From: Escherichia phage EP_H11
Sequence record: OP688485
Strand: one strand, 5' to 3'
Length of the DNA stretch: 64,000 bases
Shown: piece by piece, positions 5,287-8,307 of the stretch
Layout of the letters: every line of letters begins with the position of its first letter
Position numbering within the stretch: the first letter of the stretch is position 1
The notes under the pieces: generated by a model
Database searches by the model: none
What the model was told of the DNA's origin: nothing
The model's input: the letters and a program-made list of their open reading frames with translations, nothing else
Position numbers and translations under genes: made by a program

Positions 5287-6045
5287 ATGACCTTCCGTAT
5301 CGATGCTGTTCGCCACCTTCGCCAAATAGCCGAGCTTAAGAAAGCTCACGGCGACTCTGTGTGGCATGTTCGGGCCTATGATCGTGCAGCCCGTTCCCTT
5401 GACGATTACCCGTATGGGGTAACTTCCCAGATGAACTTCACTACAATCCCATGGATTGGTAATGGGATCGCTAGCGAGCTCGAAGACTTCGCTAAGTATG
5501 GCACCATGACTCCTAAATTCGTGGAGCTTATGTCTAAGATACCAGAAGGTCGTGTAGCTTACTCCACTGAGTTTAAGGATATTATTGAATCCTACCTAAT
5601 GGAGGTAACCAAGCTGGGTATTTCCGAAGGTAGCTCAGGCCGAATCTCTACTGCTGGTTCGGTGCGTCGTGGTAAGATGTGGATTCGTGATGTAGACCTG
5701 CTTACTACCTTCCCGCCAGAAGTGGTTCGCCACGCTTTCCGTCTTACTGGTATGGAAGAACTTTATGGCGGGGATAAAAAGATCCGCTTCGTCCATACTA
5801 ATACTGGTCTGGAGTTCGATATCAAGATCTGTCCAGAAGAATCCTGGTATGCATGCTTACTCCACTCTACTGGATCAATGCAGAATAACGTGCACATGCG
5901 TTCTGTGGCTAAGCGTATGGGCATGACTCTTAATGAGTATGGCCTGTTTAATGTAGAGACTGGTGAGAGGGTAGATACTAATTCTTCTGAGGAAGAACTA
6001 TACCAACTGCTGGGTCTGGAATACGCAGAGCCAGAGAATCGTTAA
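5287..6045 (+). CDS. DNA polymerase beta-like (Pol X family) nucleotidyltransferase
   Basis: motif GSVRRGKMWIRDVDLLTTFP resembles Pol beta GSFRRG...GDMDVLLTHP catalytic-aspartate segment; C-terminal LGLEYAEPENR resembles Pol X C-terminus; ATG 5287 with GGAG RBS. Confidence 0.6.
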   Translation: MTFRIDAVRHLRQIAELKKAHGDSVWHVRAYDRAARSLDDYPYGVTSQMNFTTIPWIGNGIASELEDFAKYGTMTPKFVELMSKIPEGRVAYSTEFKDIIESYLMEVTKLGISEGSSGRISTAGSVRRGKMWIRDVDLLTTFPPEVVRHAFRLTGMEELYGGDKKIRFVHTNTGLEFDIKICPEESWYACLLHSTGSMQNNVHMRSVAKRMGMTLNEYGLFNVETGERVDTNSSEEELYQLLGLEYAEPENR

Positions 6046-6047
6046 TT

Positions 6048-6083
6048 CCGCTCTTTTAGGGTGCTAAAAGGCTGTTAAAGTGT
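6048..6083 (+). promoter_or_regulatory. conserved early-block motif copy A (candidate promoter) upstream of ligA
   Basis: CCGCTCTTTTAGGGTGCTAAAAGGCTGTTAAAGTGT, 27 nt before ATG 6110. Confidence 0.5.
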
Positions 6084-6109
6084 CAATCCAACTGTAAGGA
6101 ATAACAAAG

Positions 6110-8053
6110 ATGGAAAAAGTCGCTGCTCTGGTAGAGCAAATCAAGAATGCGGCTAATGCATATTATAATGGTGACCAGCCCATTATTACGGACGAAGAGT
6201 TCGATGCTCTTACCGAGAAATTAGCTGAGCTGGACCCTAATAACCCACTCCTTACTACCCCAGGCTGGGGTGTAACCGAAGCTGCAGAACATCTGGCTAA
6301 GTGCCCACATGGCTCATTCGTGGGTGGTCTTGACCAGGTTAAGATCGGTGCTGTGGAAGAGGGATTTAACTTCCTCCATGGCCACGAAGAAGTTAAGGGA
6401 TTCGTTGCTTCAGCTAAGCTGGACGGTATCTCGGTAGTTCTGTATTACGACTACGACGGTAACTTCGTCCGTGGTTTAACTCGCCACGATGGTGTATTTG
6501 GTCTGGACATCACGAAGAATCTGGAGTGTGCAGAATTCCCTCGCCAGATTCCTAAAGGTATTAAAGAAGTCCGCTGCGAAATCGTTATTCCTGATGATAA
6601 GTTCGAGCGGATTAGTCACGAGTACAGTAACCAGCGTAATGCTGCTTCTGGTATTGCTCTGGCTAAGTATAGTGATCCTGCATTAATGGAACTGCTTGAT
6701 GTAGTTGCATATTCGGTAACGGCATTCTACGAGGATGTGGATCACGAGACATGGATGGATGACTACAACCAGCTTCTGCTGTGCTTAAGTAAGGCTGGGT
6801 TCAAAGTAGTTAAGTACTTCGTTCTTCCAGCAGGTTATGTCAATAGCTGGCTGGTTGCTAACCCACCATCTAAGTTCCGCGAAGATCCAGTCTGCAACTA
6901 CCTGCTGGATGGTGTAGTTCTCGGATCTATGAATGTTGACTGGGATGAGAATATGTTGGGCAAGAATACTGTCCATTATAAGATCAAGTATCAATCAGCA
7001 TTCTATGACACCACCGTGGTTAAGGTGCACTGGGTAGTTAGCGGTTACGGCCGAGTCGTGCCTACTGTTGAGTTCGAGACGGTAGACATGAGTGGCGTTA
7101 ATGTAACTTATGCATCCGGATGGAATGCTGAGTATATCAAGAATGCTGGTATCGGACCTGGCGCTAAGATCAAGATTAGTCGTCGTAACGAGGTAATTCC
7201 TCATATCGAAGAAGTCGTGGAACCCGTCACTGCGGTGATTCCAGAGTTCGTAGATGGGGTACGTACCTTCTGGGATGGTGTACACATCCGCATCAAGACC
7301 AAGCTTGACCCGATGGTGATTCGTACCATTATCCGAGACTTCGCTCCTAAGGGTCTAGGTGGCGTAAATATCAATAAGTTTGCTGAGCAGGCTAAACTTG
7401 ATGACATTTCCATGTTGAATGACATAATAAAGACTGGCCCATCTCATCCGGTATTCGGCATGGTAGAGATGTACGATGGTCCTCTCCAGCTTACTCGTCA
7501 GTCCTTCTTCAATATGAAGGAACGTCCTACCTCTATGGACCACATGCTGACTTGTACCTGGACGGATGGTCTTGGTTATGCTACAGGAATGCGTATTGCT
7601 ACTGCGGTAACCCGTGACCAGATGATTCGTGTGCTGCGTAACAATAGCTTCCACGACATGGTTAATGACGGTATCCAGGTCAATACCGAGGACTACGAAA
7701 TCTGTAAGGCAATATATGATGCCTGCATGGGTTCCGTAGCTAAGAAGATTGCAGAGAATCAGGAAGTAATCCTGAAGGTGCTGAATCTTCCTCTGAACTG
7801 GGTAGCCTCTAAGGTAGAGGAACCGCTTCCGGAAGGTAAGTTCAAGATCTGCTTAACTGGTAAGCTTAGTAAGCCTCGTAGCGAACTGGTTAACTCCTGG
7901 ATCAAATACGGCGTAGTCGAAGTCGGTATCGGCGACGCAGAATATCTGGTATGCGACAAGCCGAGTCAGTCCAGTAAGTTTAAGGCTGCCGAAGCTAAGG
8001 GTACCAAGATCGTTACCGAAGATCAATTCCGTAAAATCATTGGAGCTGAATAA
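6110..8053 (+). CDS. ligA: NAD-dependent DNA ligase (LigA-type)
   Basis: 647 aa; N-terminal AYY...ITDEEFD...L..LDPNNP region, adenylation motif KLDG, TRHDG..G.DIT, NQRNAASG, C-terminal BRCT-like region, all collinear with bacterial LigA as remembered. Confidence 0.9.
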   Translation: MEKVAALVEQIKNAANAYYNGDQPIITDEEFDALTEKLAELDPNNPLLTTPGWGVTEAAEHLAKCPHGSFVGGLDQVKIGAVEEGFNFLHGHEEVKGFVASAKLDGISVVLYYDYDGNFVRGLTRHDGVFGLDITKNLECAEFPRQIPKGIKEVRCEIVIPDDKFERISHEYSNQRNAASGIALAKYSDPALMELLDVVAYSVTAFYEDVDHETWMDDYNQLLLCLSKAGFKVVKYFVLPAGYVNSWLVANPPSKFREDPVCNYLLDGVVLGSMNVDWDENMLGKNTVHYKIKYQSAFYDTTVVKVHWVVSGYGRVVPTVEFETVDMSGVNVTYASGWNAEYIKNAGIGPGAKIKISRRNEVIPHIEEVVEPVTAVIPEFVDGVRTFWDGVHIRIKTKLDPMVIRTIIRDFAPKGLGGVNINKFAEQAKLDDISMLNDIIKTGPSHPVFGMVEMYDGPLQLTRQSFFNMKERPTSMDHMLTCTWTDGLGYATGMRIATAVTRDQMIRVLRNNSFHDMVNDGIQVNTEDYEICKAIYDACMGSVAKKIAENQEVILKVLNLPLNWVASKVEEPLPEGKFKICLTGKLSKPRSELVNSWIKYGVVEVGIGDAEYLVCDKPSQSSKFKAAEAKGTKIVTEDQFRKIIGAE

Positions 8054-8307
8054 TGTCTGTAACTTTGGAACAGGTTAAAGATGCGCTGCGATCTGCAGTA
8101 GCTGACATCATGATGGTTGATATTCTGGAAGTAACTGAAACTACTACTGGTGAGCAGTTAGGTGCAGATTCTCTGGATGAAGTGGAGATCATCATGCGTG
8201 TTGAAGATGAACTGGGTATGGAAGACTGTATCCCAGACTTCGACTATGATAGCGACGATACTCTGGAGCAGGTGGCAGAAAAGATCGTGGCAGTTCTGAA
8301 CCAGTGA
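8053..8307 (+). CDS. acyl carrier protein-like protein
   Basis: 84 aa acidic protein with LGADSLDEVEIIMRVEDELG matching the ACP phosphopantetheine-attachment motif. Confidence 0.7.
   Translation: MSVTLEQVKDALRSAVADIMMVDILEVTETTTGEQLGADSLDEVEIIMRVEDELGMEDCIPDFDYDSDDTLEQVAEKIVAVLNQ

What the first reader, a model, noticed from the sequence alone, without database searches (positions are those of the whole stretch)
5287..8307. Adjacent Pol X-like polymerase, NAD-dependent DNA ligase and acyl-carrier-like protein: a compact gap-filling repair cassette
The 5287-6045 product has a Pol beta-like catalytic segment (GSVRRG...RDVDLLTTFP) and a Pol X-type C-terminus. It is immediately followed by a full-length LigA-type ligase (KLDG adenylation motif, BRCT-like tail) with its own copy of the conserved promoter-like motif. 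A Pol X plus ligase pair is the minimal short-patch base-excision-repair machinery (as in African swine fever virus) and is unusual in phages. It could repair uracil or defence-induced lesions, or process replication intermediates of modified DNA. The ACP-like gene directly downstream is unexpected in this context.
Basis: partly seen in the sequence, partly recalled or inferred. Interest (0 to 1): 0.7.

Follow-up and report, generated by a model that had tools for sequence, protein, structure and literature searches.

The report
Phage Pol X, NAD ligase, ACP trio
This stretch of Escherichia phage EP_H11 really does encode a small repair-type DNA polymerase, an NAD-dependent DNA ligase and an acyl carrier protein side by side, but a 2025 preprint has already described the polymerase-ligase pair as the uracil-repair back-end of this phage group, so only the carrier protein and the polymerase's truncated build are new.

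Summary
5287-6045 encodes a 252-aa family X polymerase: Pfam thumb 5e-20 and 8-kDa domain 1e-12, intact GSxRRG and Asp135/137/178, AlphaFold pLDDT 94, Foldseek to Pol beta 3e-16. 6110-8053 encodes a full-length LigA-type ligase. 8053-8307 encodes a canonical-looking ACP. A conserved promoter-like motif lies between the polymerase and the ligase.

All three proteins are 100% identical to consecutive "hypothetical proteins" of Escherichia phage EP_H11. This phage belongs to the SP15/RP13-like phages with hypermodified thymine.

A 2025 bioRxiv preprint names EP_H11. It reports that Pol X and ligase co-occur in these phages, whose replicative polymerase carries a fused uracil-DNA glycosylase. For YerA41 it shows that Pol X cuts abasic sites and fills gaps, and that the ligase seals them.

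New details:
- This Pol X lacks the Pol beta 88-148 subdomain and has Glu in place of the dRP-lyase lysine.
- The ligase has lost all four zinc-finger cysteines.
- Tight adjacency is seen only in EP_H11's close relatives; two Vibrio phages keep the genes 3-4.5 kb apart.
- The ACP is translationally coupled to the ligase, and its function is unexplained.

The parts
4542..4562 (+). Terminator-like hairpin that closes the preceding transcription unit. A perfect TATAAT at 4607-4612 follows it, upstream of the small ORFs that lead into Pol X.
   Evidence: 9-bp stem, 5 G-C pairs, T-rich tail. The TATAAT is read directly from the sequence.
5124..5290 (+). 55-aa hydrophobic small ORF whose stop overlaps the Pol X start (ATGA), which suggests translational coupling.
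   Evidence: Function unknown. The 123-aa ORF upstream (4750-5121) has no family hit.
5287..6045 (+). Family X DNA polymerase, 252 aa, short form. An 8-kDa-like HhH domain (about residues 1-88) joins directly to the palm (about 90-183) and thumb (about 184-252). Catalytic residues are D135, D137 and D178. Glu64 sits at the Pol beta Lys72 position.
   Evidence: The protein is identical to EP_H11 WBU87675.1.
6048..6083 (+). Conserved promoter-like intergenic motif, CCGCTCTTT-N9-AAAGGCTGTTAAAGTGT, 27 nt upstream of the ligase ATG.
   Evidence: seven + strand copies of the exact 12-mer, always just upstream of a gene start. The ordinary sigma-70 scan is not enriched in this region.
6110..8053 (+). 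LigA-type NAD+-dependent DNA ligase, 647 aa. Domains: Ia (1-50), adenylation (about 60-295, Lys103 in KLDG), OB (299-371), Cys-less zinc-finger remnant (about 375-395), helical HhH domain (400-558), BRCT (575-645).
   Evidence: The protein is identical to EP_H11 WBU87676.1.
8053..8307 (+). Acyl carrier protein, 84 aa, very acidic, with the motif LGADS40LDEVEIIM. Its ATG overlaps the ligase TAA stop (TAATG), and a GGAG lies 9 nt upstream.
   Evidence: The protein is identical to EP_H11 WBU87677.1.
8302..8350 (+). Conserved RNA stem-loop immediately after the ACP stop codon, with no T-run. It probably marks the end of, or stabilises, the ligase-ACP message.
   Evidence: -22.9 kcal/mol, z = -5.9, 0 of 200 shuffles fold as well; conserved in 4 genomes, with one compensatory A-U to G-C change in L008.
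24040..24510 (+). Context gene: dUTPase. It limits dUTP and supplies dUMP for 5-hydroxymethyl-dUMP synthesis.
   Evidence: PF00692, 2.4e-35.
24781..25404 (+). Context gene: dCTP deaminase-like protein, the source of dUTP/dUMP for the thymine-replacement pathway.
   Evidence: PF22769, 1.1e-23. Listed for IME392/EP_H11 in PMC12686479.

Best explanation
The window comes from Escherichia phage EP_H11, a member of the SP15/RP13-like myoviruses that replace thymine with a hypermodified base derived from 5-hydroxymethyl-dU.

Proposed pathway, shown only for the relative YerA41 and inferred here. Residual dUTP is incorporated into phage DNA. The N-terminal UDG domain of the replicative family-A polymerase excises the uracil ahead of the fork. 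The polymerase bypasses the abasic site. Pol X, bound to the replicative polymerase, then incises the abasic site and fills the gap. The NAD+-dependent ligase seals the nick.

The 5287-6045 product is the Pol X of this pathway. It is catalytically intact but stripped down: an 8-kDa domain, palm and thumb, with no Pol beta 88-148 DNA-binding subdomain and no lyase lysine. Removal of the 5'-deoxyribose-phosphate is therefore more likely done by the phage FEN-type 5'-3' exonuclease, by a non-canonical residue, or by a host enzyme.

The 6110-8053 product is the only ligase found in the phage genome regions examined. It most likely serves both this repair and Okazaki-fragment joining.

The 8053-8307 product is a genuine phosphopantetheine-type carrier protein, co-expressed with the ligase from the promoter-like motif at 6048-6083. 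It is probably not a repair component. My best guess is that it is an acyl or aminoacyl carrier for a phage-specified modification chemistry, or an auxiliary protein directed at host metabolism.
For: Identity of the genes:
- Pol X.
- Ligase.
- ACP.

Identity of the phage:
- Exact matches to EP_H11 proteins.
- 93.8% DNA identity to IME392, where two of the genes are annotated as Pol X and ligase.

Lineage:
- Full-length ligase relatives are RP13, Ab1-TPeters, RHph_TM30, SP-15 and YerA41, with LIS04 matching over the N-terminal 61%.
- The IME392 polymerase is closest to the phiLo and YerA41 polymerase structures 9qhs and 9qlh.
- A profile of its N-terminus hits the phiLo UDG domain (3e-12) and family-4 UDG 1ui0 (3e-5).

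Hypermodification toolkit:
- 5-hmdU DNA kinase helical domain (3e-35) and a gene annotated as thymidylate synthase.
- dUTPase and dCTP deaminase.

Published evidence:
- Co-occurrence of Pol X and ligase in SP15-like phages, with EP_H11 named.
- YerA41 Pol X AP-endonuclease and gap-filling activity, sealing by ligase pre-incubated with NAD+, and a Pol X-polymerase complex. All from bioRxiv 10.1101/2025.03.26.645540.

Other support:
- No stand-alone AP endonuclease or UDG was found in the window or in the scanned IME392 ORFs.
- Pol X lies near a ligase in other phages too. Vibrio phage 150E35-1 has a LigA-type ligase 3 kb away. Jumbo phage 2.275.O has an ATP-dependent ligase 4.5 kb away.
Against: - All the biochemistry is from YerA41. 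Its Pol X is only 37% identical to this one, and only over palm and thumb. It also keeps a ~47-aa insert with a GIG hairpin that the EP_H11 protein lacks, so AP-endonuclease activity and binding to the replicative polymerase may not transfer.
- In the IME392 polymerase, the UDG motifs read GD-ER and HHA rather than the GEAPG and HPS of phiLo and RHph_TM30. Uracil excision by this polymerase is therefore not assured.
- The EP_H11 polymerase itself lies outside the window. I examined only its IME392 counterpart.
- Tight Pol X-ligase adjacency is not conserved across the family.
- No partner enzyme for the ACP was found: no PPTase, adenylating enzyme or acyltransferase. Its assignment is a guess.
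Confidence: 0.72

Rival explanations
1. Lagging-strand maturation module. Pol X fills the short gaps left after primer removal by the phage RNase H and FEN, and the ligase joins the Okazaki fragments. Repair would be secondary.
For: - The phage genome encodes a Toprim primase, helicases, RNase H, a 285-aa 5'-3' exonuclease, and the only ligase found in the regions examined.
- Pol X and the ligase sit at the end of the long replication-gene array, in the same orientation.
- The lack of a lyase lysine fits clean 5'-phosphate gaps.
Against: - The replicative family-A polymerase can normally fill such gaps itself.
- Most phages with the same replisome parts have no Pol X.
- The preprint finds Pol X specifically in the UDG-fused SP15-like group and not in SPO1-like phages.
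Confidence: 0.15
2. Repair of damage caused by the hypermodification chemistry or by host attack on the modified base. Host glycosylases that remove 5-hmU, or failed steps after 5-hmdU phosphorylation, create abasic sites or gaps. Pol X and the ligase then mend these using the phage nucleotide pool.
For: - The 5-hmdU DNA kinase domain and the glycosyltransferase cluster show post-replicative base chemistry.
- Pol X homologues found by tblastn cluster in phages of the proposed hypermodified group: IME392, YerA41, Carin-5 and Ab1-TPeters.
- Bifunctional glycosylases leave gaps that need no dRP lyase, which would fit Glu64. This last point rests on general knowledge, not a tool result.
Against: - There is no direct evidence.
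- The published data point to uracil.
- Short-form Pol X also occurs in Vibrio phages whose DNA modification status is unknown.
Confidence: 0.08
3. The ACP is a functional partner of the ligase or of DNA metabolism. It might be an acidic DNA-mimic or regulatory subunit, or a carrier that delivers a group to DNA, which would make the trio a true three-part cassette.
For: - The TAATG stop/start overlap, a shared promoter-like motif and a closing stem-loop make ligase and ACP a two-gene unit.
- This arrangement is conserved in every close relative with sequence across the junction, even where the downstream genes vary.
- The ACP is 100% identical between EP_H11 and IME392, against 97.4% for the ligase and 93.7% for Pol X.
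Against: - The ACP is absent from all other SP15-like phages that have the same ligase.
- Helix II is the canonical AcpP recognition helix, which points to ordinary carrier biochemistry.
- The only other phage ACP hit, in phiRSL1, is not near a ligase.
Confidence: 0.1

Closest known systems
Pol X plus NAD+-ligase repair pair of SP15-like phages (YerA41; bioRxiv 10.1101/2025.03.26.645540)
   Same: - Same phage group; EP_H11 is named in the paper.
- The ligase is homologous over 94% of its length.
- Pol X palm and thumb are homologous, 37% identical.
- The replicative polymerase is of the same subfamily, with an N-terminal UDG-fold domain.
- There is no separate AP endonuclease gene.
   Different: - EP_H11 Pol X is 252 aa against 298 aa, and lacks the ~47-aa insert between the 8-kDa domain and the palm.
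- The genes are adjacent here but 31 kb apart in YerA41.
- The UDG motifs have diverged.
- An ACP is coupled to the ligase here. The ACP found no tblastn match in YerA41 or any other SP15-like phage outside the IME392 group.
African swine fever virus Pol X plus ATP-dependent ligase plus AP endonuclease (viral minimal BER)
   Same: A very small family X polymerase paired with a virus-encoded ligase for gap filling and sealing. The fingers/D subdomain is missing in both.
   Different: - ASFV Pol X (174 aa) also lacks the 8-kDa domain, which is present here.
- The ASFV ligase is ATP-dependent, whereas this one is LigA-type (ranks ASFV ligase far below the LigA structures).
- ASFV encodes its own class II AP endonuclease, and none was found here.
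Bacterial PolX (Thermus thermophilus 3au2, Bacillus subtilis)
   Same: It is the best sequence match in the PDB, at 3.7e-20. The 8-kDa domain, palm, thumb and catalytic aspartates all align.
   Different: - Bacterial PolX is about 570 aa, with a fingers subdomain and a C-terminal PHP nuclease domain that supplies AP-endonuclease and 3'-5' exonuclease activity. Both are absent here.
- The NCBIfam PolX equivalog scores 95 bits against a cut-off of 426.
Escherichia coli LigA (2owo)
   Same: - Same domain order: Ia, adenylation, OB, HhH, BRCT.
- Motif I lysine and the NMN-binding residues of domain Ia are conserved.
   Different: - About 21% identity.
- All four zinc-finger cysteines are lost.
- The HhH region is not recognised by Pfam.
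- Scores fall below the NCBIfam LigA equivalog cut-offs.
Phaeocystis globosa virus Pol X-ligase fusion (cited in the preprint)
   Same: A viral Pol X physically linked to a ligase function for base excision repair.
   Different: There the two are one polypeptide with lyase activity. Here they are separate genes with a promoter-like motif between them, and there is no lyase lysine.

Membership tests
Family X DNA polymerase | Pol beta-type nucleotidyltransferase palm with GSxRRG, the DxD pair and a third Asp | tested here: met
   - G124-S125-x-R127-R128, D135, D137 and D178 align to the Thermus PolX motifs GSARRY, GDLDFL and QVDLRV.
- They also align to Pol beta D190, D192 and D256.
- The DxD pair is invariant in all 43 short-form relatives.
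Family X DNA polymerase | C-terminal thumb (nascent base-pair binding) domain with the Asn279 and Arg283 equivalents | tested here: met
   PF14791 at 5.1e-20. N201 and R205 are invariant.
Family X DNA polymerase | Overall Pol beta fold | tested here: met
   AlphaFold pLDDT 94.4. Foldseek against the PDB: Pol beta 5ugp at 3.1e-16, probability 1.00.
Family X DNA polymerase, Pol beta/lambda-type BER enzymes | 8-kDa domain with the dRP-lyase nucleophile (Pol beta Lys72) and a basic 5'-phosphate pocket (Lys35, Lys60, Lys68) | tested here: not met
   - The domain is present (HHH_8, 1.2e-12).
- Lys72 is Glu64, Lys35 is His27, Lys60 is Thr52 and Lys68 is Gly60.
- Glu is shared by the closest relatives.
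- The Pol beta sequence was recalled from memory. The Thermus PolX alignment agrees with it (AEK against SEL).
Family X DNA polymerase, canonical four-subdomain architecture | Fingers/D subdomain with the second helix-hairpin-helix (Pol beta 88-148) | tested here: not met
   - No PF10391 or PF14520 hit.
- Thermus PolX residues 93-181 have no counterpart in the query.
- The profile search matches 225-275-aa proteins in one stretch but longer ones in two stretches.
- The model goes from helix 76-82 directly into the palm.
Family X DNA polymerase | Template-directed gap-filling activity; AP-endonuclease activity as reported for YerA41 Pol X | not testable with these tools
   Needs purified protein. 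Published only for YerA41.
NAD+-dependent DNA ligase (LigA) | Adenylation domain with the KxDG motif I lysine and motifs III-V | tested here: met
   PF01653 at 7.6e-20. K103, D105, G106, E157, D267, G268 and K293 are invariant in 39 sequences that include canonical LigA.
NAD+-dependent DNA ligase (LigA) | N-terminal domain Ia with the NMN-binding residues (E. coli Tyr22, Asp32, Tyr35, Asp36) | tested here: met
   PF22745 at 2.9e-7. Y18, D28, F31 and D32 are conserved, and the F/Y position varies among true LigA.
NAD+-dependent DNA ligase (LigA) | OB, zinc finger (Cys4), HhH and BRCT C-terminal modules | tested here: inconclusive
   - OB met (3.2e-13).
- BRCT weak by Pfam (0.0076), but aligned and folded.
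- Helical domain 400-558 is modelled, and Foldseek aligns about 600-700 columns to full-length LigA.
- The four zinc-ligand cysteines are all absent.
- Below the NCBIfam equivalog cut-off: 187 against 444 bits.
NAD+-dependent DNA ligase (LigA) | Use of NAD+ rather than ATP | not testable with these tools
   Inferred from domain Ia. The YerA41 homologue was pre-incubated with NAD+ before the sealing assay.
Acyl carrier protein (PP-binding) | Carrier-protein family sequence signature (Pfam PP-binding) with a conserved Asp-Ser-Leu attachment serine at the start of helix II | tested here: met
   - PF00550 scores 32.4 bits against a cut-off of 20.8.
- LGADS40LDEVEIIM aligns to LGADSLDTVELIM of solved ACPs.
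- Ser40 is invariant in relatives.
- Below the NCBIfam equivalog cut-offs.
- The four-helix fold itself was not modelled here.
Acyl carrier protein (PP-binding) | Phosphopantetheinylation and a cognate loading or acyl-transfer enzyme | tested here: inconclusive
   No PPTase, adenylating enzyme, ketosynthase or acyltransferase was found among about 100 ORFs scanned in the window and in IME392. Small ORFs were not all scanned, and host AcpS could serve.
SP15-like phage replication-coupled uracil repair (UDG-fused polymerase + Pol X + ligase) | Replicative family-A polymerase of the SP15-like subfamily with an active N-terminal UDG domain | tested here: inconclusive
   - Tested on IME392, because the EP_H11 gene lies outside the window.
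- The polymerase is closest to phiLo 9qhs, at 2.4e-39.
- The N-terminal profile hits the phiLo UDG domain (3e-12) and family-4 UDG 1ui0 (3e-5).
- Motif A reads GD-ER and motif B reads HHA, instead of GEAPG and HPS.
SP15-like phage replication-coupled uracil repair (UDG-fused polymerase + Pol X + ligase) | Co-occurrence of Pol X and ligase in the genome | tested here: met
   Both genes are present and adjacent. The preprint reports the co-occurrence for the SP15-like group and names EP_H11 as a member.

The most novel reading that the evidence does not exclude
The ligase-coupled ACP is a working part of this phage's DNA chemistry. It could carry an acyl or aminoacyl group used to build or decorate the hypermodified thymine side chain, or act as an acidic regulatory partner of the Cys-less LigA. 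Together with the fingers-less, lyase-less Pol X, this would mean the EP_H11 lineage runs a variant repair and modification module not seen in YerA41 or SP-15.
Probability: 0.1. Interest if true: 0.65.

Novelty: already known. Interest (0 to 1): 0.3.

Why it matters
Phages that replace thymine must keep uracil out of their DNA. A self-encoded set of glycosylase, Pol X and ligase explains how they do so, and it is a rare case of a complete BER-like pathway in a phage. That insight has already been published for this group, and EP_H11 is named in it. What this window adds is modest.

- It shows that the pathway can run on an even smaller Pol X, with no fingers subdomain and no lyase lysine.
- It shows that this short form recurs in several phage lineages and in many metagenomic clusters.
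- It flags a strictly conserved carrier protein, co-translated with the ligase, whose role is unknown.
- It corrects the public annotation, in which all three EP_H11 proteins are 'hypothetical'.

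Tried and rejected
- Search for a stand-alone AP endonuclease, UDG or other glycosylase. I ran Pfam scans of 26 further + strand ORFs, 35 more window ORFs in pooled mode, and about 35 IME392 ORFs outside the window. None was found. Only the UDG-fold N-terminus of the family-A polymerase turned up.
- The idea that Pol X-ligase adjacency is a conserved operon. Rejected: in Ab1-TPeters and YerA41 the genes lie 16-31 kb apart, and in Carin-5 no ligase flanks Pol X.
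- The idea that ACP-next-to-ligase recurs elsewhere. The only other phage ACP hit, in phiRSL1, has no ligase nearby.
- Context of the more distant short-form Pol X proteins P0017, P0004 and P0029. The contigs were under 2.1 kb and uninformative.
- An ordinary sigma-70 promoter explanation for the intergenic motif. The scan gave no enrichment over shuffles, 10 sites against a mean of 10.0.
- PHROGs has no family for this Pol X.
- Direct sequence detection of the UDG domain in the IME392 polymerase by Pfam or phmmer failed. A four-sequence profile was needed.
- A literature search for phage ACP function gave only a predicted ACP-FabZ interaction and an 'ACP reductase' listed among SP-15 modification genes. 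Neither is decisive.

Full report
**1. What is in the sequence**

- ORF listing places three same-strand genes at exactly the reported coordinates: 5287-6045 (252 aa from the ATG), 6110-8053 (647 aa) and 8053-8307 (84 aa).
- Pfam assigns the first to family X polymerases: thumb domain 5.1e-20, N-terminal HHH_8 (8-kDa) domain 1.2e-12, and a weak nucleotidyltransferase hit.
- The second has NAD-ligase domain Ia, the adenylation domain, the OB fold and a weak BRCT hit. It matches the phage family phrog_3869, 'NAD-dependent DNA ligase', end to end at 7e-89.
- The third matches PP-binding above Pfam's threshold and phrog_5934, 'acyl carrier protein'.

**2. Which phage this is**

- The region is 93.8% identical to Escherichia phage vB_EcoM_IME392, where the first two genes are annotated 'putative DNA polymerase family X' and 'putative DNA ligase' and the ACP is not annotated.
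- An exact-sequence look-up shows all three proteins are identical to consecutive entries WBU87675.1, WBU87676.1 and WBU87677.1 of Escherichia phage EP_H11. All three are labelled 'hypothetical protein' there. The window is therefore EP_H11 or an indistinguishable isolate.
- Two papers place EP_H11 and IME392 in a group with YerA41, Carin-5, RP13, SP-15 and others. This group is defined by a special family-A polymerase and by hypermodified thymine (PMC12686479; bioRxiv 10.1101/2025.03.26.645540).
- My scans agree with that placement:
  - The window holds a dUTPase and a dCTP deaminase.
  - The IME392 genome outside the window holds an annotated thymidylate-synthase gene, a 5-hmdU DNA kinase helical domain (3.2e-35), a YfbR-like nucleotidase, a PIG-L deacetylase, a methyltransferase and glycosyltransferases.

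**3. The polymerase**

- The best solved relative is Thermus thermophilus PolX (3au2, 3.7e-20). Query residues 9-89 align to its 8-kDa domain and residues 119-249 to its palm and thumb. About 90 Thermus residues in between have no counterpart.
- Alignment with human Pol beta shows the same deletion, of roughly residues 88-148. This is the DNA-binding fingers/D subdomain that carries the second helix-hairpin-helix. The Pol beta sequence was recalled from memory, and its numbering was checked against known landmark residues.
- Several Pol beta residues are conserved: S180, R183, D190, D192, D256, N279 and R283.
- A profile search of 1.84 billion cluster representatives found 10,398 relatives.
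  - About 43 of the best 150 are proteins of 225-275 aa matched in one uninterrupted stretch.
  - The 300-330-aa and 550-580-aa forms match in two stretches.
  - The short architecture is therefore a recurring class and not a truncation artefact.
- An AlphaFold model built on 43 short forms has pLDDT 94.4. It runs from the 8-kDa helices straight into the palm. Foldseek returns Pol beta and Pol lambda at about 3e-16.
- The lyase nucleophile Lys72 is Glu64 here and in the closest relatives. Lys35, Lys60 and Lys68 are also replaced. The protein is a credible polymerase but not a credible canonical dRP lyase.
- The experimentally studied YerA41 Pol X (298 aa) and the Carin-5 Pol X (289 aa) keep an extra ~47-residue segment with a GIG hairpin between the 8-kDa domain and the palm. 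The EP_H11 enzyme is a shorter variant of the characterised one.

**4. The ligase**

- It aligns to E. coli LigA (2owo) across domain Ia, the adenylation domain and the OB fold.
- In a 39-sequence alignment that includes canonical LigA, several residues are invariant: the motif I lysine (K103), D105, G106, E157, D267, G268 and K293. Three domain Ia residues equivalent to E. coli Tyr22, Asp32 and Asp36 (Y18, D28, D32) are also invariant. The Tyr35 position (F31 here) is Phe or Tyr throughout.
- The four zinc-finger cysteines are all replaced in EP_H11 and its near relatives, while the BRCT signature remains.
- An AlphaFold model (pLDDT 88.0) shows every module in LigA order. Foldseek aligns 600-700 columns to full-length LigA structures: 9a6z_B at 4e-37 and 2owo at 5e-30.
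- Scores fall below the NCBIfam equivalog cut-offs because the C-terminal half is divergent.
- NAD+ dependence is inferred from domain Ia and was not tested.
- Its only full-length phage relatives are RP13, Ab1-TPeters, the RHph_TM30 group, SP-15 and YerA41, with LIS04 matching over the N-terminal 61%. It is a lineage marker of this phage group.

**5. The ACP**

- The sequence LGADS40LDEVEIIMRVEDELG matches the attachment-site serine and recognition helix II of solved ACPs, for example 1x3o at 4.7e-7.
- Ser40 and most of the protein are invariant among genus-level relatives. The protein is 100% identical between EP_H11 and IME392.
- Its ATG overlaps the ligase stop codon (TAATG), with a GGAG 9 nt upstream.
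- It is followed by a strong, conserved stem-loop without a T-run. The fold is -22.9 kcal/mol with z = -5.9, and one pair shows a compensatory change in L008.
- Outside this genus, the only phage hit is the phiRSL1 ACP at 36% identity, and that gene is not near a ligase.
- No partner enzyme was found in about 100 scanned ORFs.
- A four-gene glycosyltransferase cluster lies 2 kb downstream, at 10313-13002.

**6. Organisation of the region**

- The promoter-like motif is real. AAAGGCTGTTAA occurs seven times, all on the + strand. In six copies a CGCTCTTT-like box lies about 18 nt upstream, and each copy sits just ahead of a gene start. One copy lies at 6048-6083, between Pol X and the ligase.
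- Pol X closes a unit that begins after the terminator-like hairpin at 4542-4562. Its start codon overlaps the stop of a small ORF.
- Ligase and ACP appear to form their own two-gene unit.
- The trio is syntenic in L008, L009 and L010, and Pol X-ligase adjacency holds in L007, where Pol X is 58% identical.
- In Ab1-TPeters and YerA41 the polymerase and ligase are 16-31 kb apart, and in Carin-5 no ligase flanks Pol X.
- Proximity of a short Pol X to a ligase recurs in Vibrio phage 150E35-1, at 3 kb. It also recurs in jumbo Vibrio phage 2.275.O, where an ATP-dependent ligase lies 4.5 kb away.

**7. How it most likely works**

The 2025 preprint reports the following:
- SP15-like polymerases carry an active N-terminal UDG domain.
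- All members except phiLo encode both Pol X and a ligase.
- No AP endonuclease gene is present in these genomes.
- YerA41 Pol X cleaves abasic sites like endonuclease IV and fills gaps.
- The ligase, pre-incubated with NAD+, seals the nick.
- Pol X co-elutes with the replicative polymerase.

I checked the parts of this that I could:
- The IME392 polymerase is closest to the phiLo and YerA41 structures.
- A profile of its N-terminus hits the phiLo UDG domain (3e-12) and family-4 UDGs (3e-5).
- I found no stand-alone AP endonuclease or glycosylase.

Two caveats are new:
- The UDG motifs of the IME392 polymerase read GD-ER and HHA, instead of GEAPG and HPS.
- Pol X lacks both the insert present in YerA41 and any lyase lysine.

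The phage also encodes RNase H, a FEN-type 5'-3' exonuclease, a primase and an Mre11-Rad50 fusion. The ligase is the only one found in the phage genome regions examined. It therefore almost certainly serves replication as well, and flap removal by FEN could replace lyase chemistry. That last step is an inference.

**8. Verdict**

- The 'cassette' is a local arrangement seen in EP_H11's close relatives.
- The ACP remains unexplained and is the only element with real residual novelty, together with the short Pol X architecture.
- Interest is low to moderate.

Noticed in passing
window 906, 6067, 13024, 18219, 19616, 22331, 23406 (+ strand): There are seven exact copies of AAAGGCTGTTAA. Six are preceded by a CGCTCTTT-like box and sit just before gene starts, so this is a candidate phage-specific promoter. 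The copy at 906 instead pairs with an inverted copy at about 935-946 followed by a T-run, like a terminator.
   Followed up: partly
L005 18741-19712 (- strand), i.e. IME392 record MH719082.1 33740-34711; outside the window: A 323-aa protein matches the 5-hmdU DNA kinase helical domain PF18723 at 3.2e-35, and lies next to an AAA_28 P-loop protein. The 2025 preprint, discussing RP13, EP_H11 and IME392, says the 5-HMUDK kinase could not be detected, so this may be a missed or split kinase.
   Followed up: partly
L005 22578-23960 (- strand), i.e. IME392 record MH719082.1 37577-38959; outside the window: A genuine BCCT betaine/choline/carnitine-type transporter (PF02028, 1e-92) is encoded inside the phage's nucleotide-modification gene block. 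This is unusual for a phage and might import a precursor for the base modification.
   Followed up: no
L005 12311-13210 (- strand), the IME392 family-A polymerase N-terminus; outside the window: The UDG-fold domain of the replicative polymerase has GD-ER and HHA where phiLo and RHph_TM30 have the family-4 UDG motifs GEAPG and HPS. Its glycosylase activity or specificity may therefore differ.
   Followed up: partly
window 10313-13002 (+ strand): Four consecutive glycosyltransferase-like genes: phrog_4603 'sialyltransferase'/MptE-like, phrog_2111, a GT1 family gene, and phrog_1962. They follow a DUF7217 gene (9609-10316). They are candidates for glycosylating the modified base or virion proteins.
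   Followed up: partly
window 54-560 and 21010-21669 (+ strand): Likely counter-defence genes: an Acb1-like anti-CBASS phosphodiesterase (2.9e-6) and a NADAR domain protein (7.4e-27) of the kind that reverses ADP-ribosylation.
   Followed up: no
window 8582-9001 (+ strand): A PinA-like inhibitor of host Lon protease (PF10465, 3.6e-9) lies just downstream of the ACP. It is absent from the relatives L009 and L010, so this neighbourhood is variable while the Pol X-ligase-ACP trio is fixed.
   Followed up: partly
window 8302-8350 (+ strand): A strong conserved RNA stem-loop with a UUCG-type loop lies right after the ACP stop codon and has no T-run (-22.9 kcal/mol, z = -5.9, one compensatory change in a relative). 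It may be an mRNA-stabilising or processing element.
   Followed up: yes
L016 8001-8765 and 13303-14742 (Vibrio phage 2.275.O, MG592671.1): An unrelated 349-kb jumbo phage carries the same short-form Pol X. An ATP-dependent ligase and a SIR2-domain gene lie within 5 kb. This is an independent case of Pol X lying close to a ligase.
   Followed up: no
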